In this document: one piece after another, positions 3,101-52,866 of the stretch
How the letters are laid out: the number at the start of each line of letters is the position of its first letter
How positions within the stretch are numbered: position 1 is the stretch's first letter
Source: a virus
Lineage: Duplodnaviria; Heunggongvirae; Uroviricota; Caudoviricetes
DNA: 54,932 nucleotides
Direction: 5' to 3' (one strand)
Virus record (IMG/VR): IMGVR_UViG_2939147180_000006
Coordinates: 1 to 54,932 of that record
Translations under genes and position numbers: made by a program
Notes under the pieces: generated by a model
Database searches by the model: none
Seen by the model: only the letters and a program-made list of their open reading frames with translations
What the model was told of the DNA's origin: nothing

Positions 3101-3476
3101 TGTTGGCAAGAAGCTGATCCATCTGACCATCACCGCCGAAATCTTCCCACCACTCTACAGCGGCGGCGATTTCTGTTTCCCTGCCCTGGTAGTAACGCAG
3201 GGTTTCAGCTACGTCCTGAGCAAGCCCATCAACTGAGATCGAGTCAGATAGTAGAATACTGAATTTTGTCCCAGCAGGGATGGCTGGGTTAGCCGCTGGT
3301 GTTACTGACAGTTCAGTGCCGCTCTTGATTTCCGTAATGGTAAAGATCTGTACAGGATTGCCAACAGCAATGAGCGTGCAACCTACACGAATGAGAGAAA
3401 GTGGCGCGGAAAAGTTTGTGCCCGTGCCTGTAACAGTATTGCCACTAATGGCAATTGTTCCAGTTGTGTAAATCAT
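150..3476 (-). CDS. Distal tail fiber protein with C-terminal peptidase-S74-type intramolecular chaperone domain
   Basis: 1108-aa ORF after J; C-terminal segment ...NQSSDRDLKDDILVIRDA... plus coiled coil typical of self-cleaving chaperone domains; AKTSETN tandem repeats near N-terminus; GGAGT RBS. Confidence 0.7.
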   Translation of the reverse strand: MIYTTGTIAISGNTVTGTGTNFSAPLSLIRVGCTLIAVGNPVQIFTITEIKSGTELSVTPAANPAIPAGTKFSILLSDSISVDGLAQDVAETLRYYQGRETEIAAAVEWWEDFGGDGQMDQLLANIRAETAKSTANAQKTESDKNAAEASKTAAAKSATAAKTSETNAKTSETNAKTSETNAKTSENRAQEYLNQMGRLTSPMVQCAWPVETSNNGAYVKIAKLSDPKSVSCHLTLMVTNGGNYGSSYGNIDFIEISARGLNDTGEVTSENISKFLSVRRLGSPNLPNDNQMRYGLVKGDGYIEVWCYQRAFIKETKVAVLAQTGNTELYIPEGYVTQTDAPSGFIESPAARIYDQVNKPSKADLGLSNAMLIGAFGLGGSGPASNGMMSNTELLKALRAKGSHFWRADKPNGSTATHYAHGSGIFSRCGDTWSAINIEYENARVKIFAGNDNKLETATYAVNELYGTQNKPSKSDVGLGNVTNDAQVKKSGDVMSGDLTISKETPSIYLRATGGTGATAVRFYTDQNQERGIIYAGQNTDTLGEVRIRAKNAKGESSGDFVVRHDGRVEARDLKVTYKISGATAELANTSTDATNTTLKISGAQHTPLVLTRTDAFKNLSIGFKVSDIEQKYLGIDDSGYLAFGGSADQKLNSRVITQAILDSGVTVGGQTTFSGLATFNAGMAGSINPETIDGKAIDLNDLVIKFADKGSVKYYQCTNAAGGNAITNKPDGVGGNFLLRVESIRKVRDSDYTNLQTLVATDTKQIYVRYCENGNWSAWSQIVVSGRNQDVTVRSLTSTTPSKLGGGRIDVLGSTSDYGSMNCTVRGVDSTGTNSAWSVGTSESTGKMLFLKNHRSSAQVLLNGDDGAVQLLSGTVNGATAQALTINKDEVNSTADLVIRKQAGTGNRFALLNSGNAELPVSIRVWGSSDRQNVFEVGTSSAYLFYAQKTSAGQLFDVNGAINCTTLNQSSDRDLKDDILVIRDATKAIRKMNGYTYTLKENGLPYAGVIAQEVMEALPEAVGSFTRYGEELQGPTVDGNELREETRYLNVDYAAVTGLLVQVARETDNRVTELEEENASLKANIAAMDERIAKLEALISQLTGSEE
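2919..3000. repeat. About 3.5 copies of a 21-bp tandem repeat inside the tail fiber gene (encodes AKTSETN repeats)
   Basis: Read directly: gcgttggtttcgcttgtcttc repeated head-to-tail. Confidence 0.7.
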
Positions 3477-3560
3477 CGCAATGACTCCATTTTGTTAATT
3501 AACGATATTATTTTAACGCTTTGTCATTGCATGTTCTATTTTTGTGTATACATTATGTAT

Positions 3561-3582
3561 AAAAAACCCCGCGACTGCGGGG
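3561..3582 (-). terminator. Rho-independent terminator immediately after J
   Basis: Minus strand GC hairpin ccccgc-agtc-gcgggg followed by TTTTTT, 7 nt after J stop. Confidence 0.6.
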
Positions 3583-3588
3583 TTGGTG

Positions 3589-6500
3589 TTAGTCGTGTGA
3601 TTCTTCCCATTTATCCCACGTACCGTTACAACGTCCAATTAATATAGTGGGGCAACATAACTGTATTTGTGTTATATCAACCGTGGTTGGCGGCGTATAT
3701 ATCTCGATGACAACATCAACAATCTGATCTGTTACACTGTCTCTACCACAAACAAACATACCGTTGGATTGTTCATTGCCAAATTTTTTCGCATCAAGCA
3801 CTTTCACTCCGTTGATAAATGCGTTTATGTACGAACTGGATAGTAACCCTGTTAATCTTGCCTGGAATAATACGTTTTTATAGGTTCCTTCTGTTGTAGA
3901 GTCAATAAAGCGATAACAAAATCTTGCTACCCTGTAAGTAGTATTAGGTACTTTGCTACTATCAGGGAAAACGTGCATTGCTACAATGTCACCAATGAAT
4001 CTGTTGGCGCGTACAGTTCCTGTAAATGTACCGCTGTCCGCATGTATTTCACCCCTTACAACAACGTTGTTAAATTCTGATGCGCCGCTTTGTGTTATCC
4101 TCCAACCACTGGAACCAGGGACGAAGTTTGCTGATTTAATTTCATTAACAATTTTAGCCATAGTAATGGAGGCATCTGCAATTTTAGCCGTCCCTATTGA
4201 CGCATCCTTAATAAACGCCTCTTTCACATACATTGCGCCGTTAGTGACATAGAATGGCGATGTATATGAACCGTTTGCTGCGGTCATTAACACGAAACGG
4301 TCAACAAGGAAAATACACTGCGACTGAAAGTTAGTGCCGTCACCAGTAAGGCCAAGCGACATACCTGCTGCGTATTTTACGCCATTGCTATCTGTGGCGA
4401 GCTTGATTGAATATGTCGCATCAACATTACCCTTAAAGTCGGTTAATGCTTTCGATGTCGTCTCTATTGCCGTCTTATTCCCGTTAACGGTCACTGTTAA
4501 CTGATCAATTTTCGTTGACAACGCCTCGTCTGCCGTAGCCATTGTCTGCGACCATTCTGTAATACTTGCGTTTACTGATTCGAAAGACGCTGAGATCTGG
4601 CTAAATTTTTCTGCGCTTGATGTTTCATGCGTAGAGAGCGCCGTTGACACTTCAGATACTTTTGAGTTGATTGTGCTGGTAAGCGATGCGCTAAGGCCGC
4701 TTATTGCGTCTGCGCGTGCTTTTGTTTCATCGGCGATGGCTTTGTCCATCCTGGTGACGTTGCTTGTCACTTTATTATCAAGCGTGCTGACACTTGCGCT
4801 AACTTCGCTGATAGCTTGTCCTCTGGCGCTTGTTTCGTCAGCAATTGCCTGATCAAGGCGGTTAACGCTTGCTTCGGTTTTCTTATCAAGGTCGGTGATC
4901 GATGCGCTTACCCCGCTAATGGCTTCCGCTGTCGCTTTTTTCTCTTCAGCAATAACGTTGTCAATACGGTCAATTTGCGCGTTTGTTTCTCTGCGGCCTT
5001 TCTTGTATTGGGCCGTAAGAGTAACTCGCGTGTTGGTTTGAGCGATTGAGTTATTGATAAGTGCAATAGATGCGTTTTGCAGGCTTGCTTTTGCCTGATT
5101 TATTTCGTCGCTGTTTTTGCCAACATTATTTTCAACAGCGCCAAGATTTGCGCTGAGGCCTGATATTGCTTGTGCACGGGCGCTTGATTCATCGGCAATT
5201 GCCTGATCAAGACGTTTAACGCTGGCGTTTGTGTTGTTCTCAAGCGTTGTTAAGTCTGCTTTAACCTCTGTTATTGCGTCGCTTCTTGCCTTCGTTTCGT
5301 CTGATATTGCTTTATCAAGGCGGGAAACGCTGGCGTCAGTTTTCTTGTCAAGGGTGTCTATCGACGCCTTCACGCCGCTGATGGCCTGTGCGCGTGCGCT
5401 GGCCTCGTCAGCGATGGCCTGGTCGAGTCTGTTCACCTCTGATTCAGTGTTGCTTTCAAGCGTGCTGATGCTTGCATTAACGCTGCTGATAGCGTCAGTG
5501 CGCGCCTTAGTTTCGTCTGCAATCGCTTTATCAAGGCGGCTAACGTTACTTGTAACCTTGCCGTCGAGTGCGGAAATTGACGCATTCACACCGTTGATGG
5601 CTTCGGTTCTCGCGCTTGTTTCATCCGCAATGGCTTTATCAAGGCGGCTTATGCTTGAATCGGTTTTCTTGTCGAGCGCTGATACTGAGGCATTTACCCC
5701 GCTAATAGCTTCGCTGCGTGCGCTTGTTTCGTCAGCAATAGCTTTATCCAGGCGTTTAACGCTGGCGTCAGTTCTCTTATCAAGTACCGAGATACTTGCG
5801 TTAACGTCACTGACCGCCTGTGTGCGGGCGTTCGTTTCATCTGCAATAGCCTGATCAAGCCTATTGACGCTGGCATCCGTTTTCTTGTCGAGATTGCTTA
5901 TTGAGGCGTTCACACCGTTAATAGCTTCAGCGCGGGCACTAGCCTCGTCAGCCACTGCGCGTTCCACACTGGAGATCTGACCTTTAAGGTTGGAATCCAT
6001 CGCGTTCATTTCTGCCGTGATGGTTTTCAGTGATTCAGCCGTTGCTTTTTTCTCTTCAGCGATAACGTTGTCAATACGGTCAATTTCCGCTTTCGTTTCC
6101 GTTCTGCCTTTTTTGTACTGGGCGGTAAGGGTAACGCGCGTGTTTGTCTGTGCAAGCGAGTTGTTGATAAGCGCCAATGACGCGTTTTGCAGGCTTGCTT
6201 TTGCTTGCTCCAGTTCACTGCCAACTTTTTCGCTGGACACTTCTAATAGGTCAATCCTGGACTCATGCTGACCAATATCATCGGCGTTTTCCTTAACTTT
6301 TTTGTAAAGATCTTCCGTTTCTTTTTTAAGTGTATCGGTGTCAGCTTTTATTGTTCCTGTTTCTGTGATCAGGTTGTCAGTGTCAGTTCTTAAATCTTCG
6401 GTTATGTTGGTCAGGTTGTCGGTTTCAGTTCTTAAATCGTCAGTTATGTTGGTCAGGTTATCAGTTGCAGTTTTGAGGTTGTCGGTCGCTGTTTTTAGTT

Positions 6501-10955: not shown

Positions 10956-11083
10956 TTTTTCACCTTGTCATTTTGTGATCGCCGTCACGATAAATCATAC
11001 CAAAACGGTTGATCGCGATTTTTACAATATGTATATTGTACTCAAAAGGAAGCATGGTTAACAAAATGGCGCGGAGGTGTGAA

Positions 11084-11239
11084 ATGGATGATAAGGTGTG
11101 GATGTTGAAGGTGTTCCTTACGGATGGCAGGGAAATGACTGTGGCCCAGTATAAAGATGAAGGCGAGGCACTTGCCGACGCGCTATTGCTCGCTGAAGAC
11201 GAACGCGTTTTGGGGTACAGGATCGAACCTGTCAAATGA
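11084..11239 (+). CDS. Hypothetical small acidic protein (51 aa), first gene of opposite-strand moron operon
   Basis: GGAGG RBS 6 nt upstream of ATG at 11084; table ORF 11009..11239 trimmed to RBS-supported start. Confidence 0.45.
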   Translation: MDDKVWMLKVFLTDGREMTVAQYKDEGEALADALLLAEDERVLGYRIEPVK

Positions 11240-11251
11240 GAGGTTAACGAA

Positions 11252-11602
11252 ATGCAAAAATATAGTTTAGAGGTATGGACTGATAAATGTGAATGGGAAC
11301 GCATGGGCCTGTTTGACACATATGATGCTGCGCGTGACGAAGGTCGTGAATTACTTCGCTGTTGGTCTAACGCTCGTGATTTTGTTATTACTCCTGTACC
11401 AGTGCCGGATAAGGTGGAAGACATGAACCCGAAAGATATTAACTTTAACGTCAATGTTGATTTTGCTGATTCTATGGATCAGTCTTGCCCTGGTGAAATA
11501 CACGCAAAAGGTTTCCCGGCTGACGATCCAGAAGCAAAACGCGAATACGTAAAAGCGGCGAAAGATTTCTGCATAGATAACCTGGGCGCATTCGATAAAT
11601 AA
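11252..11602 (+). CDS. Hypothetical acidic protein (116 aa), moron operon
   Basis: ORF with GAGAGG RBS; 12-nt spacing from upstream gene; no recognisable motif. Confidence 0.5.
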   Translation: MQKYSLEVWTDKCEWERMGLFDTYDAARDEGRELLRCWSNARDFVITPVPVPDKVEDMNPKDINFNVNVDFADSMDQSCPGEIHAKGFPADDPEAKREYVKAAKDFCIDNLGAFDK

Positions 11603-11611
11603 GGCGGCAAC

Positions 11612-11875
11612 ATGGGGAGGAGCAATCACGGCGATTATGTGTACACGTTGAAACAGGCCGCCCGCCTCGTCGGTTATCATGAACACGAATTTATTGATTT
11701 GCTGATTGAGCGCGGGATACTGTACCAGGTCTGTTTAACACTGTACCCAAAAGCGAAATACCTACAGGAAAAGTTATTCATCATCATGACGGATGAAAAC
11801 CAGGTAAATCATTCATTCGTTACTGATAAAGGCGTCAATTATCTGCGTGATAACTTACAGGACTGTATATGTTAA
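11612..11875 (+). CDS. Hypothetical protein (87 aa) with possible HTH segment
   Basis: ORF 9 nt after previous stop; segment YTLKQAARLVGYHEHEFIDLLIERGIL looks helix-turn-helix-like (inference). Confidence 0.45.
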   Translation: MGRSNHGDYVYTLKQAARLVGYHEHEFIDLLIERGILYQVCLTLYPKAKYLQEKLFIIMTDENQVNHSFVTDKGVNYLRDNLQDCIC

Positions 11876-12072
11876 AGTACGACGGTCAAAAAATGGTTAG
11901 GTTTACAGGTTTTGCTAAAGGTAACAATAGAGAATTAACAGAATATTACAGTTTAAATATTGGTGACGTTTACCGCGTGGAAATATGTCTGCCTTCAATT
12001 AATTCTTTAATAATTATAAATAAAGAAAATCAAGGCGTGCTTGTTACATTTAACGAAGTGGAGTTACCTTAA
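11869..12072 (+). CDS. Hypothetical protein (67 aa), moron operon
   Basis: ORF overlapping previous stop by 7 nt (coupled). Confidence 0.4.
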   Translation: MLKYDGQKMVRFTGFAKGNNRELTEYYSLNIGDVYRVEICLPSINSLIIINKENQGVLVTFNEVELP

Positions 12073-12883: not shown

Positions 12884-13053
12884 GATTCCCCCTATAAGTT
12901 ACATATTGCATACATCTTTACGCGCTTCTACGCGAAAAATGAGAACTTTGTCACAAGAATTATACCCAGTTTACGAAATGGCTTCACACATGACGTGCCA
13001 AGTTGTATATAGAAATCAAGAAGAGAGAGCAGTACAAGCAAAGGAGGTCAAAT

Positions 13054-13209
13054 ATGGAACGCTATGTGGTTGTAATGCTGAACAAAGCATTCGAACAGGT
13101 GGAAGTTGCGATTGTGAAGGGATTTGATGATGCATTCAAATACGGTCAATTCATGATGAATGCAAAAGAAGATGAATACCGTGATTTCTTCCTGAAAGTG
13201 GTCAACTGA
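13054..13209 (+). CDS. Hypothetical protein (51 aa), second moron operon
   Basis: AAGGAGG RBS upstream of ATG at 13054 (table ORF 13003..13209 trimmed). Confidence 0.45.
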   Translation: MERYVVVMLNKAFEQVEVAIVKGFDDAFKYGQFMMNAKEDEYRDFFLKVVN

Positions 13210-13229
13210 TTGATTGCGTGGGGTGAGTT

Positions 13230-13484
13230 ATGAAATTGGTGGCGATTGGCAAAAACCTGAAAGCACAGAAAAACGCCCAGGACCGGATAATCAAAAAGGG
13301 CAAGTCTTTATTAAATGCTTTCCTGAAAAAAGAGGCCAACCCCAAAAAATTACGCGATGGCTACGGTTATAAATTTGACATCAACCCCGATTGGCGGTTA
13401 TTCAGCGAAGATTTAAAGATGTGGTTAATTATTGACCATCTGGAATACAACCGCCACTGTGGAGTAAAAGGGGCACATAAATGA
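13230..13484 (+). CDS. Hypothetical basic protein (84 aa)
   Basis: ORF with GGGGTGAG RBS; lysine-rich. Confidence 0.45.
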   Translation: MKLVAIGKNLKAQKNAQDRIIKKGKSLLNAFLKKEANPKKLRDGYGYKFDINPDWRLFSEDLKMWLIIDHLEYNRHCGVKGAHK

Positions 13485-13603
13485 GGTGAAATATGGATGA
13501 CGATAAATTCACCTGGAGGGATATCTGGAACATCTGGCAGGTGATGTTTGCTCGCAGCTATATAGCAAGAAACGGAAGATTGTGATTTGCGGAGGAAAAT
13601 AAA

Positions 13604-13780
13604 ATGAAAAACCCGGCAAATAAAAGCAATGTAAAACGTATGGCATGGATCGTAAAATGGATGGATAGCAAAGGCGAGACATACAAAGAACCGTTTTTCA
13701 GATACACAGATGCCGTATTCGCAAGAAGTGTAAGAGGAGGGAAAATTGAAAGAGGATATACAAGTTTTGAGAATAACTAA
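13604..13780 (+). CDS. Hypothetical protein (58 aa)
   Basis: Manually translated MKNPANKSNVKRMAWIVKWMDSKGETYKEPFF...; GGAGG RBS 8 nt upstream; followed by terminator. Confidence 0.4.
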   Translation: MKNPANKSNVKRMAWIVKWMDSKGETYKEPFFRYTDAVFARSVRGGKIERGYTSFENN

Positions 13781-13812: not shown

Positions 13813-16161
13813 TTATTTGCGGCGCGGTTGCAACATTCCTCCCGGTCGTTGCGATTCCCTTGCCATCATTTTCATTGCTACGCGTTCCATCGTCTGTTCA
13901 AGTCTGCGACTGTCTTCGTCACTAAATCCGTTTGTGGTCTGTACGGTGATGTTAACAGGCATATTGATGCCGCCACCATTGAAGAGATCACGGCCAGGAA
14001 TTACTCTACCATTCTCGCCGGGAATCATATACTGACGCCCGTTGCTCGTCTGGAATAGTTCCGGGATCCCGTGCTCACCTACGCGATACAGACTTCCACC
14101 ATTCACAGAACCACCATTATAACGCCCGCCGCCAAAAATTGATGTTGCCAGCGACATGATCGCAGAAAGTGCCGCAGCACCAGCCGCAGCCCAGCTACCA
14201 CCAGTTGACGCAGCCGTTGCAGCCGCAGCCGGGGCCGCCGCAGCCGCAATCTGGCCTTGCGCCGCCACAGCGCCAGCAGTTGTACTTGCCTGGGTAGCCT
14301 TGCTTTGCGTTTCCATCATCAATTGATCTGCTATCCAGTTAGCGGCAATCTCTGATAGTTTGTTACCAACGGTATTGAGGATACTGCTTCCCAGGTTGGC
14401 GAAAACCTCGCTTAATGATTGAGTACCGTTTAACAGGCCGGTGAGCGCATTACCCATGCCACCTTTTAGGCCACTAACACAAGCACCAATCAGGCCGTTT
14501 GTGTCGCTTTGTGCCTGCCATTGTTCCCATTTCAGATCTCGGATCTGTTGTTCGTATTCCAATTGCGCCTGTCTCTGTTGCGCCTCTGTAGCGCCCAGGT
14601 CCAATAGCATTTGTTTTCTTACAGCCCATTCATTTTGCGCCTGCTTGATTGGGTCAATTTCGCCCTTAAGCTGGTCCATCGGGCTAACTATGTGGTCCCA
14701 TTTGTCGCGTAGCTCATCAACGGGGATTTGCGCCAATTCGTCCTTCAGTTCCTTTCCTATCCCTTTCTGCGCGGCCTTGTACTCAAGGAGGGTTATTTTG
14801 CCCTGGGCGAATGCAGCATCAATGGCCTTGCCGTTCTCTAATGCTTTGCGCATAGCGGCGGCGTCCTTGTTGTATTGGTCAGATACGTTTATGCCTTCAT
14901 CGCCAAGCCGATCAGCTTCAGATTTCTTGTCTTTTTTGCCATTTTTCCCTTTTTTGGGCTTACCAACTGGCTGATCGAATCCTGTAATCTTGCCGTCGTC
15001 AGCCTCACCCTGTTTCTGCATGAACTCGTCATAGGCTGCTGTGGCTTTTTCTATGTCATTCTTGAATGTCATAAATTTGCCAATGGTGGGGCCGAATTTC
15101 TTTTCGTTGTTGCTGTTTAGCTCTTCCTTGCGCTTGTCAATGATCTCCTTCATCCATTTGTAGCCATCCATTAGCGCTTTGATTGGCGTCACCATTCTGA
15201 TGATTTCTTCCGCCACCTCACCCGCCTTAATAGCAACATCGTCAAACATGTCGATGAACTCACTACCAGCGGTTTTCAGTGTATTGAAACAGGTTGCGGC
15301 GAATTTTGCGCCTTTACCTAACCCCTCAACGCCACCAGTGATTAAGTCTATTGCTGACACAACGCCGTCAGATATGCCGAAAAGATCATCAAGCTGCTCG
15401 ACAAGTCCCATCACCTCCACTTTAAGCTCGTTAAAGGCCATGCCGGATGTGCGCGGCAACTGTGCGAACTTCTCGTTTGTTTCCTGCGTGGCGGCCTGGA
15501 TCGCGTTGAGCATCCTTTCAGCCGTGATCTTGCCGTCCAGCATTTCGGCGCGGAACTGGCCCATTGACAGCCCCATTTGGCGGGCCATTTCCTGTATGAT
15601 TGTTGGGGTATTGTCACGTATTGAGTTAAATTCTTCAGCCTGCAACACGCCAGCATCAATAGCCTGGCGGAACTGGCGCATGGAGTTTGATAGTTGTTCC
15701 GCAGACACGCCGCCCAGGTTGCCAAGTTTTTGCAGCGTGCTGACCAGGTTGAGTACCTGGCCTTCTGTGGCGGATGTGTTTTTTAGCGATATGGCAAGAC
15801 CTTGCCACAGGTCGCCAGTATCCTTAAGGCTTTGCCCTGTTTCTTTTGATATATCTTTCAGTCTGTTGAAAACACGTTCCGTGGCCTCCGCTTCACCTGT
15901 AAGCAGTTTGATTTTTACGCGAAGCATTTTAGCTTGTTCCGCCATGTCAATAAACTGGCGTACAGCCTCCGCAGCAAGTAGCAAATGGATAACCCTGGAC
16001 AGTGCTTTGATTGAAGTCTTAAGCGTGTTCACCTGGCGGTCAGCGCGTTTTGCGCCACGCTCGATGCTGTCAAAAGCCTGGTCTGCCTGTCGTTGAGCAA
16101 CGAGAAGTTGACCAGTTTTTGCATCAACTTCGTAATAAATTGTGCCTAAACTAGTTGCCAT
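13813..16161 (-). CDS. H: Tail tape measure protein (lambda H-like)
   Basis: 782 aa, coiled-coil-rich, Gly/Ala-rich segment and C-terminal GGGR...NGG region as in lambda H; position between chaperone and M. Confidence 0.8.
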   Translation of the reverse strand: MATSLGTIYYEVDAKTGQLLVAQRQADQAFDSIERGAKRADRQVNTLKTSIKALSRVIHLLLAAEAVRQFIDMAEQAKMLRVKIKLLTGEAEATERVFNRLKDISKETGQSLKDTGDLWQGLAISLKNTSATEGQVLNLVSTLQKLGNLGGVSAEQLSNSMRQFRQAIDAGVLQAEEFNSIRDNTPTIIQEMARQMGLSMGQFRAEMLDGKITAERMLNAIQAATQETNEKFAQLPRTSGMAFNELKVEVMGLVEQLDDLFGISDGVVSAIDLITGGVEGLGKGAKFAATCFNTLKTAGSEFIDMFDDVAIKAGEVAEEIIRMVTPIKALMDGYKWMKEIIDKRKEELNSNNEKKFGPTIGKFMTFKNDIEKATAAYDEFMQKQGEADDGKITGFDQPVGKPKKGKNGKKDKKSEADRLGDEGINVSDQYNKDAAAMRKALENGKAIDAAFAQGKITLLEYKAAQKGIGKELKDELAQIPVDELRDKWDHIVSPMDQLKGEIDPIKQAQNEWAVRKQMLLDLGATEAQQRQAQLEYEQQIRDLKWEQWQAQSDTNGLIGACVSGLKGGMGNALTGLLNGTQSLSEVFANLGSSILNTVGNKLSEIAANWIADQLMMETQSKATQASTTAGAVAAQGQIAAAAAPAAAATAASTGGSWAAAGAAALSAIMSLATSIFGGGRYNGGSVNGGSLYRVGEHGIPELFQTSNGRQYMIPGENGRVIPGRDLFNGGGINMPVNITVQTTNGFSDEDSRRLEQTMERVAMKMMARESQRPGGMLQPRRK

Positions 16162-16200
16162 GATTTAACCTCATACGAAATGTGATCCATGTCTCTATTT

Positions 16201-16241
16201 TATACAAAATGGCTTCATTTCAACGAGTACATTTTGTATAA
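16201..16241. promoter_or_regulatory. Inverted-repeat motif TATACAAAATGG-N17-CATTTTGTATAA (candidate operator/promoter element)
   Basis: Read directly; the same half-site recurs in several other intergenic regions. Confidence 0.4.
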
Positions 16242-16318
16242 AGAAGATAAAGGAAAGGGATAGAGCGAAAGGATTTAAAAGGCCGGATTAACCGGAGGAA
16301 GCAAAAGAGGATAAGAAA

Positions 16319-16405
16319 ATGAAAAACTACTACCGACCCAACGAGCATGAGCGTTATACCGACTTCATCGAAGAAATGCTTAAAGCACTTAAAAATAAAA
16401 ACTAA
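16319..16405 (+). CDS. Possible small ORF (28 aa) at head of third moron operon
   Basis: AAGAGG RBS then ATG; MKNYYRPNEHERYTDFIEEMLKALKNKN; very short, uncertain. Confidence 0.25.
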   Translation: MKNYYRPNEHERYTDFIEEMLKALKNKN

Positions 16406-16417
16406 GCGGGGTGAGTT

Positions 16418-16768
16418 ATGAAACGGTTAATCAAAGCGGCGATGATGGCGGTAATGGTATGTTTAGCATTCAACGCCAACGCAGATAACAAGATTGATAA
16501 AGCGGAGCATGAATGCGCATTTGCCGCAGAAATATACGACTTAAAATACGGTGACGGTATGGGATACCTTGAGATTGTATATGACGCAGCTTGCAGGTAT
16601 AGGGCGGTAGTCCCGTTCCTTGGTGATGAAATTGCCGAAAAATTTAAACTGCACGAAAAATACAAAGATTTGGTAGACGGCATAAATGAACCTGAGCTAC
16701 TCAAAGCGGTTCGTGACGGCGAAGTTAAAGGATTCGCAATCCACCACAGAGTAAAGGCAGGCGTGTAA
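16418..16768 (+). CDS. Hypothetical secreted/periplasmic protein (116 aa) with N-terminal signal peptide
   Basis: N-terminus MKRLIKAAMMAVMVCLAFNANA has n/h/c-region signal-peptide character; RBS GGGGTGAG. Confidence 0.5.
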   Translation: MKRLIKAAMMAVMVCLAFNANADNKIDKAEHECAFAAEIYDLKYGDGMGYLEIVYDAACRYRAVVPFLGDEIAEKFKLHEKYKDLVDGINEPELLKAVRDGEVKGFAIHHRVKAGV

Positions 16769-16876
16769 ATGGAAACAATCAAAACTGTTATAGATGTATA
16801 TATTACAGCATGGTTAGCATTTAATATAATGGCTGTGCTAGTGCTGGCAATGACAACAGAAGATAAACGTAATTAA
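16769..16876 (+). CDS. Small membrane peptide (35 aa)
   Basis: TAAATG stop-start overlap with the previous gene; hydrophobic core ITAWLAFNIMAVLVLAM. Confidence 0.35.
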   Translation: METIKTVIDVYITAWLAFNIMAVLVLAMTTEDKRN

Positions 16877-16886
16877 GGAGTTCATC

Positions 16887-17189
16887 ATGGAAATGGTAAT
16901 TTTCTTTTGCGGATTCGTGGGAACTATGATTGTTGCCCAGAAAAGACATCTTAATATGCTCATGGCATTCATTGGCGCACTGATTTTTTGGCCTGCCGTA
17001 TTGATTTACGCACTGTGCGTTAACAAAAGGATGTTTAAACACTACGTCGATGCGGTGACTTTCGTAAGCATGGAGTTCCCTAACGCAACTGACGTACAGA
17101 AAGCACAGGTTGCAACTTACCTTTACGATAACGTGTACGATATTCATGACCTGGATGAGGCAAGATGCAGATTTGCAGCATACAAATAA
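16887..17189 (+). CDS. Hypothetical membrane protein (100 aa, two predicted TM segments)
   Basis: AGGAG RBS; hydrophobic segments VIFFCGFVGTMIV and LMAFIGALIFWPAVLIYAL. Confidence 0.5.
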   Translation: MEMVIFFCGFVGTMIVAQKRHLNMLMAFIGALIFWPAVLIYALCVNKRMFKHYVDAVTFVSMEFPNATDVQKAQVATYLYDNVYDIHDLDEARCRFAAYK

Positions 17190-17197
17190 AGATAAAG

Positions 17198-17222
17198 GCC
17201 CGGTTAATTCCGGGCTTTTTCT
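17198..17222 (+). terminator. Rho-independent terminator ending third moron operon
   Basis: gcccgg-ttaatt-ccgggc hairpin followed by TTTTTCTT. Confidence 0.65.
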
Positions 17223-17923
17223 TGCTCGCGTTTTTTCATCAATTCCAGCACCCTTTTAGCTGCCTCCATTTGCTCCTCATAATCACGTTTATTTATGTGA
17301 ACGCTTGGCTTACTTACCTCGTTTCTTTCGTCTGGTGGCGTTTTAGCGCGTACAGCTGCCCTGTATCCGGTCATTGTCATGCCCCACGCTTCTGACTCAG
17401 ATAACCCCAGGTGAGCAACGGCAGAATAAACAAACTCGAGGATATCAAATGTCGGCTTGTACTCGCCTTTCTGTGTTGCGCCCGTGTCCTCCTCTGGACC
17501 GTCACCAATTAAACCGTGATACATGCAGTGTTGCGCCAGTGTGATAACGTCACTGGTAGGCATCAATCCGGGTTTTAGTCTCAACTTACCCGAAGGAGTA
17601 AACCTGCATTCGCCCAATAACGGGCCTATTTCTTCCTCTGAGCAACATCTCAGTATGTGGATGGATGTTTGCACTAACTCACCATAACAACGCGCCATAA
17701 TGCGATTACGGAGGTCTGGATCCGTTGGCAAACGCTGTGGATATTTACCACCGTGCACAGTTGCGAAATATTCAACCAGTTCCCTGTCACTGCCGATTTT
17801 AGCCATTGCAGCAAAGCAGGGATTGAATACATACCGCCTGCCATTGACTACAGCCGCAAATTGTCCGGCTCGAACATGGATCATAGATGTCACCTTAAAA
17901 ATAAAGGGGCCAAACGGCCCCAA
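17204..17923 (-). CDS. Putative tail assembly chaperone (G/GT position)
   Basis: 239-aa ORF between major tail and tape measure genes; assignment by position only; true start may be internal. Confidence 0.4.
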   Translation of the reverse strand: MGPFGPFIFKVTSMIHVRAGQFAAVVNGRRYVFNPCFAAMAKIGSDRELVEYFATVHGGKYPQRLPTDPDLRNRIMARCYGELVQTSIHILRCCSEEEIGPLLGECRFTPSGKLRLKPGLMPTSDVITLAQHCMYHGLIGDGPEEDTGATQKGEYKPTFDILEFVYSAVAHLGLSESEAWGMTMTGYRAAVRAKTPPDERNEVSKPSVHINKRDYEEQMEAAKRVLELMKKREQEKARN

Positions 17924-28924: not shown

Positions 28925-29413
28925 TTATTCTTTGCGTAAGCACTGCGTTTTGATGTAGTCCTGTAACCCAGTGATCTGAGCGTCTTTCGTTTTTAGTTGT
29001 TCTCTGAGGGATAGATAAGCCGATTCAGCGTCGGGAGTGAGTCTACAGGTGGCTCCATCAATGGCGCTGGCGGATCCGGTGGGGTCGGACAATCGCACAG
29101 GTGTTGCGTTGACGCGCAACCGGATAGTACCGTTATCAATGCCAGTGCGCAGATCGGCAATGTCAGATCTGATAGCTTTAATCTCATCGTGATACCTCTT
29201 ATCAAGTTTTGACAGTTCGGCGTTTCGCTCCTTCATCTGCTGAATAGTGTTACTTGCTGTCTTTAGTGCGCCCTGAGTGGTCGTTAACTCTTCCTGTAAC
29301 CTTGTTGCCTCACTCTGGTAATGGCACGTTACGGCGGTAAGGCTGGCAATAATGCAAACAACAGCGGCGATAATTAACGCCTTCACCTTGTCCACGTTTC
29401 CCCCCATTCGCAA
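28925..29413 (-). CDS. Rz: i-spanin (Rz-like)
   Basis: N-terminal TM anchor [14 protein letters not shown], coiled-coil periplasmic domain; directly after endolysin; Rz1 embedded in +1 frame. Confidence 0.8.
28993..29187 (-). CDS. Rz1: o-spanin (Rz1-like lipoprotein) embedded within Rz
   Basis: [24 protein letters not shown] lipobox followed by Pro-rich [17 protein letters not shown]; start trimmed from table ORF. Confidence 0.75.
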   Translation of the reverse strand: MRLKLSDLTLPICALALITVLSGCASTQHLCDCPTPPDPPAPLMEPPVDSLPTLNRLIYPSENN

Positions 29414-52690: not shown

Positions 52691-52866
52691 TGGTTAGTTA
52701 TTACAGGGCTAAACCTACAGGCATTTTGTATAAGATTGATGGCGAATATGTTTATTACTTTCACAACCAGGCGCGTGATTGGCGATTGTGTCACGCGCAC
52801 TTTAAGCACGAAATAGAAAATAACCCTGAATACTTTATCAAAGTTGACAATGTAACGGTGGCGTAA
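52690..52866 (+). CDS. Hypothetical nin-region protein (58 aa)
   Basis: TAATG overlap with ninB stop; table ORF 52636..52866 trimmed. Confidence 0.4.
   Translation: MVSYYRAKPTGILYKIDGEYVYYFHNQARDWRLCHAHFKHEIENNPEYFIKVDNVTVA

What the first reader, a model, noticed from the sequence alone, without database searches (positions are those of the whole stretch)
16319..17222. Third tail-module moron encoding a signal-peptide protein and small membrane proteins
Between the tape measure gene and the tail chaperone gene, on the opposite strand, are a 116-aa protein with a clear N-terminal signal peptide, a 35-aa TM peptide coupled by a TAAATG overlap and a 100-aa two-TM protein, closed by a strong terminator. 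Secreted and membrane morons in lambdoid tail regions are classically lysogenic-conversion or exclusion factors (Lom/Bor-like roles), but these sequences do not resemble Lom or Bor to my reading. An inverted TATACAAAATGG motif lies just upstream.
Basis: partly seen in the sequence, partly recalled or inferred. Interest (0 to 1): 0.5.

Follow-up and report, generated by a model that had tools for sequence, protein, structure and literature searches.

The report
Swappable envelope-protein cassettes in prophage tail
Between two tail genes of an mEp021-type E. coli prophage sits a reverse-oriented accessory locus encoding one exported periplasmic protein, two small inner-membrane proteins and an overlooked 28-residue protein. 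It is one version of a hotspot where related phages swap different envelope proteins, most plausibly to block infection by other phages, but no function has been demonstrated.

Summary
All described ORFs, the abutting TAA/ATG junction, the terminator and the upstream inverted repeat are present at the stated coordinates. Comparison with relatives shows the + strand ORFs are real genes: purifying selection, preserved lengths, and antisense ORFs broken in relatives.

The window is an mEpimmI (mEp021-group) prophage. The gap between the tape measure gene and the DUF6246 tail gene is a cassette hotspot. In 58 related slots I found about 20 arrangements:
- Position 1 always encodes an exported protein: the p116 family, an unrelated p138 family, a VasI-domain lipoprotein, or others.
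- Position 1 is optionally followed by the 35-aa peptide plus the 100-aa two-TM protein, or by a BamE-like lipoprotein.
- Swaps break at the signal-peptide/mature-domain boundary and at the terminator.

The 116-aa protein gives a confident helical-bundle model with two invariant cysteines and no informative fold or sequence neighbour. Both it and the 100-aa protein belong to tiny orphan families confined to these phages.

No tested feature links them to Lom, Bor, T4 Imm or Spackle, or HK97 gp15. HK97's gp15 exclusion moron does occupy the equivalent slot. The best guess, envelope-level superinfection exclusion, is inferred and not shown. This is a new member of a known kind (a moron) and is moderately interesting.

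The parts
16194..16247 (.). Inverted repeat (arms 16194-16211 and 16230-16247, 18-nt spacer). It is part of the slot's conserved backbone and overlaps the candidate promoter.
   Evidence: Found. The arms are invariant in 12 aligned relatives while the spacer varies. Both exact arms are present in 39 of 46 IMG/VR slots, and 5 more have a single A>G change. The hairpin folds at -17.8 kcal/mol, z = -5.3, if transcribed.
16214..16242 (+). Candidate sigma-70 promoter: TTCATT (16214-16219), 17-nt spacer, TATAAA (16237-16242). Relatives have TTCACT or TTTACT at -35.
   Evidence: Read by hand. The automatic scan did not list it because the -10 hexamer lacks the final T. In relatives without orf28, only about 45 nt separate the right arm from the cargo ATG. 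A promoter serving the cassette must therefore lie here. This is inferred, not shown.
16319..16405 (+). orf28: a hydrophilic 28-aa protein (MKNYYRPNEHERYTDFIEEMLKALKNKN) preceded by the RBS GAGGA. It heads the cassette array.
   Evidence: Codon-position differences are 6/4/27. dN/dS is 0.02-0.12 with saturated dS. It is present in 28 of 46 IMG/VR slots. No family match was found.
16418..16768 (+). p116: a Sec-exported periplasmic protein. The signal peptide is encoded by 16418-16483 with predicted cleavage ANA|D. The mature helical-bundle domain is encoded by 16484-16765 and has invariant C33 and C59.
   Evidence: The AlphaFold2 model has mean pLDDT 85, with the mature domain mostly above 90, and is all-helical. 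The family has only 16 full-length clusters among 5.8 billion. All examined copies lie in this same slot.
16769..16876 (+). orf35: a single-pass membrane peptide (METIKTVIDVYITAWLAFNIMAVLVLAMTTEDKRN). Its ATG directly abuts the p116 stop codon.
   Evidence: It is conserved in mEp554, N921, L004 (GTG start), L008, L013, L014 and L041. dN/dS is 0.09-0.31. It accompanies p100 in every slot that has p100.
16887..17189 (+). p100: a protein with two hydrophobic helices (residues 1-18 and 21-46), the invariant motif WPxVLIYALCVNKxxFK and a helical C-terminal domain of about 50 aa. The RBS is AAGGAG.
   Evidence: An exhaustive profile search of 1.84 billion representatives found only 3. The exact sequence is annotated 'hypothetical protein' in E. 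coli at NCBI. dN/dS is 0.06-0.20. The structure model is weak, pLDDT 68.
17189..17223 (+). Intrinsic terminator closing the cassette. It is potentially bidirectional and overlaps the stop codon of the convergent DUF6246 gene.
   Evidence: Folding energy is -19.5 kcal/mol, z = -4.6, on the + strand, followed by UUUUUCUU. On the - strand it is -15.1 kcal/mol with a poorer U-tract. It is annotated as a terminator in mEp021 and mEp554.
13813..16161 (-). Tape measure protein gene (left boundary of the slot).
   Evidence: PF20155 TMP_3, 1.4e-49.
17204..17884 (-). DUF6246 tail-module gene (right boundary of the slot). It is a putative tail assembly chaperone by position only.
   Evidence: PF19759, 6.1e-55. 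Homologues are 225-226 aa and annotated as DUF6246 family protein.

Best explanation
SHOWN. This is the cargo of a recombination hotspot in the tail operon of mEpimmI (mEp021-group) temperate coliphages. The hotspot lies between the DUF6246 gene and the tape measure gene and is transcribed against the late operon.

The hotspot has a conserved 5' arm: the inverted repeat with candidate promoter, usually the 28-aa gene, an RBS and the signal-peptide codons. It has a conserved 3' arm: the terminator. Between the arms, unrelated genes for envelope proteins are exchanged.

The window carries one of the rarer combinations:
- p116, a Sec-exported, probably disulfide-bonded helical-bundle protein;
- orf35, a single-pass peptide translationally coupled to p116;
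- p100, a two-helix membrane protein.

p116 on one side and orf35+p100 on the other assort independently, so they are two functional modules.

INFERRED.
- The array is expressed from the prophage.
- Its products sit in the periplasm and inner membrane of the lysogen.
- There they interfere with envelope crossing by incoming phage, that is, superinfection exclusion at the DNA-entry step.

The inference rests on analogy with HK97 gp15, an inner-membrane protein encoded in the equivalent chaperone/tape-measure slot that blocks genome injection in a tail-dependent way. The stated confidence of 0.4 is for this functional reading. The structural reading (a real, swappable, exported-protein moron cassette array) I hold at about 0.9.
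For: Real genes on the + strand.
- Codon-position bias in all four ORFs.
- dN/dS of 0.02-0.43.
- ORF lengths kept at 116, 35 and 100 aa across up to 30-60% protein divergence.
- Antisense ORFs broken in relatives.
- A confident AlphaFold2 model for p116.

Hotspot.
- 58 slots show about 20 arrangements, and no close relative has an empty slot.
- Distant DUF6246 phages (L076, L077) have the tape measure gene directly after DUF6246.

Clean breakpoints.
- mEp554 lacks window 16412-16759, L008 lacks 16849-17183, and mEp021 shares the sequence up to 16483.
- The window's p116 signal-peptide DNA is 62/66 identical to that of the unrelated p138 gene of mEp021, but only 42/66 identical to p116 of L008.
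- hhalign aligns p116 and p138 only over residues 1-28.

Moron features.
- G+C dips to 0.38-0.43 and the GC skew reverses sign.
- There is a strong terminator.

Envelope theme.
- Every position-1 cargo has an SPase I signal peptide or a lipobox. Examples are a VasI-domain lipoprotein (PF11319, 2e-16) and, at the second position, a BamE/OsmE-like lipoprotein.
- p116 is the only classic signal-peptide protein in the window outside the lysis genes.

Faster protein evolution of p116.
- Between the window and L004, dN is 0.163 for p116 against 0.041 for DUF6246 and 0.027 for the tape measure gene. This fits an interaction under diversifying pressure or frequent exchange.

Precedents.
- mEpimmI phages are known to carry envelope exclusion proteins in their structural cluster (PMC11893012).
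Against: - There is no direct evidence of expression in lysogens, of localisation, or of any exclusion phenotype.
- The promoter is a weak consensus match found by eye, and the scan tool did not call it.
- Cargo type does not track the adjacent tape-measure N-terminus. The same N-terminus occurs with p138, with orf35+p100 and with p138+BamE-like cargo. A strict lock-and-key relation with the resident phage's own tape measure protein is therefore not evident.
- One slot partner (UNK106) has no export signal.
Confidence: 0.4

Rival explanations
1. Lysogenic-conversion factors that benefit the host directly, with no role against phages. Possible benefits include envelope stress tolerance, serum or bile resistance, and colonisation, as with Bor or Lom.
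For: - All cargo proteins are envelope proteins.
- The alternative cargo includes BamE/OsmE-like and VasI-domain lipoproteins, whose relatives serve host envelope functions.
- The phages are prevalent in human gut isolates (PMC11893012; hosts listed).
Against: - The p116 and p100 families are confined to this one slot of one phage group. They comprise 16 clusters and 3 representatives in databases of billions. That is unusual for a generally useful host factor.
- There is no homology to Bor, Lom or any virulence family.
Confidence: 0.25
2. Orphan immunity or protection proteins against periplasm-acting toxins of competing bacteria, such as type VI amidase or lipase effectors or colicins.
For: - p116 is a small, all-helical, probably disulfide-bonded periplasmic protein. 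From general knowledge, this is a common format for periplasmic immunity proteins.
- One alternative cargo carries a T6SS-associated VasI domain.
- Diversification and cassette swapping are typical of immunity loci.
Against: - There is no toxin or effector gene nearby.
- VasI itself is not a known immunity protein.
- The families are restricted to this phage group.
Confidence: 0.1
3. Phage-cycle functions, such as control of lysis timing or help with tail assembly or the phage's own DNA injection, rather than prophage-expressed accessory genes.
For: - The slot is never empty in close relatives.
- The inverted repeat and orf28 are strongly conserved.
- The locus lies in the middle of the tail genes.
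Against: - Orientation is opposite to the late operon, with a dedicated terminator.
- The cargo is replaced by unrelated proteins or partly deleted in viable isolated phages. mEp554 lacks p116, and mEp021 lacks p116, orf35 and p100.
- Distant relatives have no slot at all.
Confidence: 0.1
4. orf35 is a toxic small membrane peptide and p100 is its partner. Together they would act as a toxin-antitoxin-like or abortive-infection membrane module, independent of p116.
For: - orf35 is a 32-35-aa single-pass hydrophobic peptide, which is the size class of type I toxins.
- It co-occurs with p100 wherever p100 is present.
- Late-operon transcription would supply antisense RNA across it.
Against: - L008 carries orf35 without p100, so orf35 is tolerated alone.
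- orf35 is translationally coupled to whatever precedes it, which is not the usual arrangement for type I toxins.
- There are no PADLOC or Rfam matches.
Confidence: 0.08
5. The + strand ORFs are spurious, and the real genes are the - strand ORFs (16402-16782 and 16821-17147), as the PHANOTATE annotations of mEp554 and mEp044 imply.
For: - Two long - strand ORFs are open in the window.
- The GenBank record of mEp554 annotates - strand CDS here.
- The - strand ORF over p116 shares its wobble positions with p116, so codon-position bias alone cannot separate them.
Against: - The antisense ORF over p116 has 2-5 stops in all five relatives. The one over p100 has 4 stops in L013 and L014, where p100 stays intact.
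- Between the window and L008, protein identity is 0.66 in the sense frame against 0.41 in the antisense frame.
- The + ORFs have RBSs, export signals and invariant cysteines.
- The PGAP annotation and the metagenome gene calls choose the + strand.
Confidence: 0.02

Closest known systems
HK97 gene 15 moron (gp15, YebO-like inner-membrane superinfection exclusion protein)
   Same: [quoted passage not shown]
- It is a small envelope protein with its own terminator.
- It is absent from close relatives.
- It is the original definition of a moron.
   Different: - There is no sequence relation (hhalign probability 0.4%; no YebO Pfam hit).
- gp15 is a single 62-aa gene on the same strand as the tail genes.
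- Here there are four genes on the opposite strand, including a periplasmic protein, inside a multi-allelic cassette system.
T4 Imm (two-TM inner-membrane protein) and Spackle (periplasmic protein with a signal peptide)
   Same: - The format matches: a periplasmic protein of about 95 aa (mature) plus a membrane protein of about 85-100 aa with two hydrophobic helices.
- Both T4 proteins act on incoming phage at the envelope.
   Different: - No homology was found (hhalign probabilities 0.2-0.3%).
- The PHROG 'spackle' match (E = 0.087) covers only the signal peptide.
- The T4 genes are not adjacent and belong to a lytic phage.
Lpp exclusion lipoproteins of mEpimmI phages and Cor/Llp-type lipoproteins
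   Same: They are envelope proteins encoded within the structural gene cluster of the same phage group, and they have been shown to exclude related phages (PMC11893012).
   Different: - p116 has an SPase I site and no lipobox. The cysteine at position 15 is glycine in most relatives.
- The tested Lpp021 and Lpp010 lipoproteins are not the proteins of this slot. In mEp021 the slot holds p138, which has no lipobox.
- This window shows no lipobox protein outside the lysis module.
Lambda Lom and Bor
   Same: They are prophage-expressed envelope proteins encoded in or near late regions.
   Different: - There is no Pfam match.
- Lom is an outer-membrane beta-barrel and Bor a lipoprotein (general knowledge).
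- p116 is an all-helical soluble periplasmic protein, and orf35 and p100 are helical membrane proteins.

Membership tests
Moron (accessory transcription unit inserted in a phage operon; Juhala/Hendrix definition as summarised in PMC3594210) | Present in some genomes, and absent or replaced at the same position in close relatives | tested here: met
   About 20 arrangements were found in 58 slots. p116 is absent from mEp554 and N921, p100 is absent from L008 and mEp021, and distant relatives have no slot.
Moron (accessory transcription unit inserted in a phage operon; Juhala/Hendrix definition as summarised in PMC3594210) | Own terminator | tested here: met
   The hairpin at 17198-17215 plus its T-tract folds at -19.5 kcal/mol, z = -4.6.
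Moron (accessory transcription unit inserted in a phage operon; Juhala/Hendrix definition as summarised in PMC3594210) | Own promoter | tested here: inconclusive
   Only a moderate manual match was found: TTCATT-N17-TATAAA at 16214-16242. The consensus scan did not list it. Its position is constrained by relatives lacking orf28.
Moron (accessory transcription unit inserted in a phage operon; Juhala/Hendrix definition as summarised in PMC3594210) | Base composition different from the neighbours | tested here: met
   G+C is 0.38-0.43 in the slot against 0.45-0.57 in the flanks, and the GC skew reverses sign.
Moron (accessory transcription unit inserted in a phage operon; Juhala/Hendrix definition as summarised in PMC3594210) | Expressed from the repressed prophage | not testable with these tools
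   This needs RNA-seq or reporter assays in a lysogen.
Sec/SPase I-exported protein (p116) | Basic n-region, hydrophobic h-region, and small residues at -3 and -1 | tested here: met
   The N-terminus is MKRLIK + AAMMAVMVCLAF + NANA|D. A20 and A22 are invariant. No signal-peptide predictor was available, and cleavage itself is not testable here.
HK97 gp15 / YebO family | Sequence homology to gp15/YebO | tested here: not met
   hhalign of the p100 family against gp15 gives probability 0.4%. None of the four products has a YebO Pfam hit.
HK97 gp15 / YebO family | Location between the tail chaperone gene and the tape measure gene | tested here: met
   This holds only if DUF6246 is the chaperone, which is inferred from its position.
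T4 Imm (Imm_superinfect) | Sequence homology to T4 Imm | tested here: not met
   hhalign probability is 0.2%. There is no Pfam hit at E <= 1.
T4 Spackle | Sequence or fold similarity of the mature domain | tested here: not met
Lom (outer-membrane beta-barrel) / Bor (lipoprotein) | Family homology, and a beta-barrel fold or a lipobox | tested here: not met
   There are no Pfam or NCBIfam hits. The p116 model is all-helical. No conserved lipobox is present.
Known anti-phage defence systems (PADLOC) | Match to any defence-system profile | tested here: not met
   There were no hits at E <= 1 for the four products, nor at E <= 0.01 for six alternative cargo proteins.

The most novel reading that the evidence does not exclude
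The slot is a dedicated 'periplasmic effector shuffling' locus. A fixed expression and export head serves as a homology arm, so that unrelated mature domains can be plugged in by recombination at the signal-peptide cleavage boundary. The head consists of the invariant inverted-repeat operator/promoter, a strongly constrained 28-aa micro-protein and a shared signal peptide. On this reading, p116 and its sister cargoes form a new class of periplasmic proteins that bind tail-tip or tape-measure components of incoming phages, and orf35+p100 act as a new inner-membrane injection block. The 28-aa protein would be a regulator or co-factor of the array.
Probability: 0.2. Interest if true: 0.6.

Novelty: new member of a known kind. 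Interest (0 to 1): 0.35.

Why it matters
mEpimmI phages are reported to be as common as lambdoid phages among the temperate coliphages isolated from human faeces in the Mexican (mEp) collection (PMC11893012), yet this locus is annotated only as 'hypothetical'. In some GenBank records it is annotated on the wrong strand.

The analysis makes three things available:
- a defined set of alternative envelope proteins sitting at one address, which is a ready-made panel for testing which phage each one excludes or which envelope property each one changes;
- a clear natural example of domain exchange at a signal-peptide boundary;
- two orphan protein families and a conserved 28-residue protein that can be tested directly.

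If the exclusion reading holds, it would extend the HK97 gp15 paradigm. The chaperone/tape-measure junction would then be a preferred home for injection blockers in an unrelated phage lineage, and periplasmic proteins would join membrane proteins in that role.

Tried and rejected
- Family searches of all four products against Pfam, PHROGs, NCBIfam and PADLOC gave nothing above noise. The 'spackle' PHROG hit was rejected because it covers only the signal peptide.
- PDB sequence-profile searches found nothing.
- The p100 model was too weak (pLDDT 68) to be worth a fold search.
- From memory, p100 seemed to resemble the T4 Imm motif. hhalign found no relation, so the idea was dropped.
- Rfam found no family in 16000-17400.
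- I asked whether the inverted repeat is a repeated operator. The motif is somewhat enriched in the window (21 matches against 9.8 expected at up to 2 mismatches). The other sites are not palindromic, and the look-alikes near the repressor gene lie inside its coding sequence. A link to the immunity repressor is not supported.
- I asked whether cargo type tracks the tape-measure N-terminus. It does not.
- I considered the - strand ORFs as the real genes and rejected this.
Full report
**What is there**

On the + strand between the tape measure gene (13813-16161, - strand; PF20155, 1.4e-49) and the DUF6246 gene (17204-17884, - strand; PF19759, 6e-55) lie four ORFs.
- p116 (16418-16768).
- orf35 (16769-16876). 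Its ATG directly abuts the p116 TAA.
- p100 (16887-17189), preceded by AAGGAG.

The array ends in a hairpin at 17198-17215 followed by TTTTTCTT. It folds at -19.5 kcal/mol, z = -4.6, and overlaps the stop codon of the convergent DUF6246 gene. Upstream is an inverted repeat at 16194-16211/16230-16247. G+C drops to 0.38-0.43 in the slot, against 0.45-0.57 in the flanks, and the GC skew changes sign.

**Are the ORFs genes, and on which strand?**

- Differences between the window and diverged relatives fall mainly on third codon positions of all four + frames: 6/4/27, 45/31/93, 21/7/37 and 54/32/104.
- Nei-Gojobori dN/dS is 0.02-0.12 for orf28, 0.10-0.43 for p116, 0.09-0.31 for orf35 and 0.06-0.20 for p100. 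The tape measure and tail tube genes give 0.04-0.11 and DUF6246 gives 0.09-0.18.
- The long antisense ORF over p116 shares its wobble positions with p116, so I tested it separately. It is open only in the window and has 2-5 stops in five relatives.
- The antisense ORF over p100 has 4 stops in L013 and L014, where p100 remains intact.

The - strand CDS annotated by PHANOTATE in the mEp554 and mEp044 records are therefore shadow ORFs.

**Product features**

- p116 begins MKRLIKAAMMAVMVCLAFNANA|D, a canonical SPase I signal. Across 17 family members, A20, A22, E32, C33, Y40, G49, E52, C59, P66, Y82, G101, E102, G105 and R111 are invariant.
- AlphaFold2 gives a confident all-helical model: mean pLDDT 85, with the mature part mostly above 90.
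- C33 and C59 lie on the two arms of the first helical hairpin at similar distances from the loop. I infer that they form a disulfide.
- orf35 has one hydrophobic segment and p100 has two.
- p100 relatives share an invariant WPxVLIYALCVNKxxFK motif. Its model is weak, pLDDT 68.
- Charge distribution slightly favours a cytoplasmic C-terminal domain for p100. This is an inference.

**Genomic identity and literature**

The window matches the mEp021 group of temperate coliphages at 90-92% identity, and 16 of 5,426 complete E. coli genomes have a partial match. This group was recently described as the non-lambdoid, Nus-dependent 'mEpimmI' phages (PMC11893012). That paper tested two exclusion lipoproteins encoded elsewhere in the structural cluster. 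It does not characterise the genes of this slot.

**The slot is a cassette hotspot**

Pairwise comparison gives sharp breakpoints:
- mEp554 and E. coli N921 lack exactly window 16412-16759, which is p116;
- L008 lacks 16849-17183, which is p100;
- mEp021 matches the window up to 16483, the last signal-peptide codon, and then carries an unrelated 138-aa gene.

A census covered 46 IMG/VR loci fetched through DUF6246 plus 12 earlier loci:

| Arrangement | Slots |
|---|---|
| orf28 > p138 | 13 |
| orf28 > orf35 > p100 | 10 |
| VasI-domain lipoprotein > BamE-like lipoprotein | 10 |
| VasI-domain lipoprotein > a 106-aa protein | 7 |
| orf28 > p119 (a 39%-identical relative of p116) | 3 |
| The window's full array | window, L041 and L004 only (in L004 orf35 starts with GTG) |

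Several other arrangements occur once each. No close relative has an empty slot. In two distant DUF6246 phages the tape measure gene follows DUF6246 directly.

Every position-1 cargo starts with MK(R/Q/S/N)L(I/A/V)K and carries a signal peptide or a lipobox. The signal-peptide DNA follows the upstream backbone, not the mature domain:
- the window's p116 is 62/66 identical to mEp021's p138 over these codons, but only 42/66 identical to L008's p116;
- hhalign aligns the p116 family and p138 only over residues 1-28.

The intergenic junction AATTAAGGrG precedes both p100 and the BamE-like gene. Exchange therefore occurs at conserved linkers and at the signal-peptide boundary. p116 on one side and orf35+p100 on the other assort independently.

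**Conserved head of the slot**

- The inverted-repeat arms are invariant in 12 aligned relatives while the spacer varies.
- Both exact arms occur in 39 of 46 IMG/VR slots. Five more carry one A>G change, which would keep a G.U pair only in + strand RNA.
- The only plausible sigma-70 promoter for the array is TTCATT-N17-TATAAA at 16214-16242, with its -10 hexamer inside the right arm. This is a manual reading, and the scan tool did not list it.
- In relatives without orf28, only about 45 nt separate the right arm from the cargo ATG. This places the promoter here.
- The repeat also lies 33-86 nt upstream of the tape measure start on the other strand, so it may act on that gene instead. This is unresolved.
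- orf28 is present in 28 of 46 IMG/VR slots and is the most constrained gene of the array.

**How narrow the families are**

- The p116 family has 16 full-length clusters (116-131 aa) among 5.8 billion, even with a profile search. All are 'hypothetical' proteins from E. coli or Caudoviricetes.
- Every genomic context examined is this same slot.
- For p100, an exhaustive HMM search of 1.84 billion representatives found only three. One of them is a 122-aa relative encoded between the tail tube and DUF6246 genes of another phage.

**Comparison with known systems**

- None of the four products gave a match above noise in Pfam, PHROGs, NCBIfam or PADLOC. The alternative cargo also gave no PADLOC hit.
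- PDB profile searches were empty.
- Direct hhalign comparisons with T4 Imm, T4 Spackle and HK97 gp15 were negative.
- The closest known analogue is positional and functional, not homologous. HK97 gene 15, the first moron, lies between the tail chaperone and tape measure genes. It inserts into the inner membrane and blocks genome injection in a tail-dependent manner (PMC3594210; layout checked).

**Mechanism**

Shown: this is a real, reverse-oriented, terminator-bounded, compositionally distinct cassette array that encodes one exported protein and two membrane proteins. It sits at a hotspot whose cargo is always exported.

Inferred: the array is expressed from the prophage and acts at the envelope.

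I favour interference with entry of superinfecting phage (confidence about 0.4) for four reasons:
- the positional precedent of HK97 gp15;
- the documented use of envelope exclusion proteins by this phage group;
- the confinement of the families to these phages;
- the roughly four-fold higher dN of p116 compared with the flanking genes.

Against this reading, there is no homology to any exclusion protein, there are no expression data, and cargo type does not correlate with the neighbouring tape-measure N-terminus.

The rival explanations are host-benefit conversion (0.25), protection from periplasm-acting bacterial toxins (0.1), a phage-cycle role (0.1), a toxic-peptide or abortive-infection module (0.08), and coding on the wrong strand (0.02, refuted).

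**Verdict**

The finding is a new member of a known kind. It is moderately interesting as a tidy example of signal-peptide-anchored cassette exchange and as a source of testable orphan envelope proteins.

Noticed in passing
It is the most constrained gene of the locus (dN/dS 0.02-0.12 with saturated dS) and is present in 28 of 46 IMG/VR slots. It has no family match, and its role is unknown.
   Followed up: partly
window 16194-16247: The inverted-repeat arms are invariant whatever the cargo, while the spacer varies. Five relatives have one A>G change that keeps pairing (G.U) only in + strand RNA. The repeat sits 33-86 nt upstream of the tape measure start codon and could regulate that gene rather than the cassette.
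   Followed up: partly
L001 (mEp554, PP180005.1) 3145-3330 and 3421-3696, - strand; equivalent to window 16402-16782 and 16821-17147: The GenBank records made with PHANOTATE annotate - strand CDS across the slot. These are shadow ORFs, broken by stops in relatives, so the deposited annotation is likely wrong there.
   Followed up: yes
L019 1712-2080: A 122-aa distant relative of p100 (P0026, 41% identity, same WPxVLIYALCVNK motif) is encoded between the tail tube and DUF6246 genes of another phage. That is the neighbouring intergenic slot.
   Followed up: partly
L011 2823-3482 and 3493-3867 (E. coli STEC308); also 16 IMG/VR loci for the VasI-type gene and 10 for the BamE-like gene: Alternative cargo of the same slot. 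The first gene encodes a VasI-domain lipoprotein (PF11319, 2e-16), which PGAP names 'TagO'. The second encodes a BamE/OsmE-like lipoprotein. A type VI secretion accessory domain on a prophage is unexplained.
   Followed up: partly
window 11009-12072 and 13003-13780 (+): There are two further clusters of + strand accessory ORFs inside the - strand tail operon. By comparison with gene calls in L004, one of them (13230-13484) corresponds to a ParE_like homologue. None has an export signal.
   Followed up: no
whole window; 28993-29187 (-): A heuristic scan found only one lipobox protein in the window, an Rz1-like spanin candidate in the lysis region. This prophage therefore seems to lack the Lpp-type exclusion lipoproteins reported for 83% of mEpimmI phages, or the gene lies outside the window.
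   Followed up: partly
window 52722-52733, 31910, 37473, 44496, 45177: The 12-mer CATTTTGTATAA and its one-mismatch variants recur (21 matches at up to 2 mismatches against 9.8 expected). The other sites are not palindromic and show no obvious link to the slot's repeat.
   Followed up: partly
window 16283-16295 (CCGGATTAACCGG) and 17198-17215 (GCCCGGTTAATTCCGGGC): A small GC-stem hairpin in the leader has a conserved stem and a variable loop in relatives. It resembles the terminator hairpin at the other end of the array. This may be chance: the fold z-score is only -1.2.
   Followed up: partly
L076, L077 (distant DUF6246 phages): The tape measure gene starts immediately after DUF6246 with no intervening slot. 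This suggests that the hotspot arose within the mEpimmI lineage.
   Followed up: no
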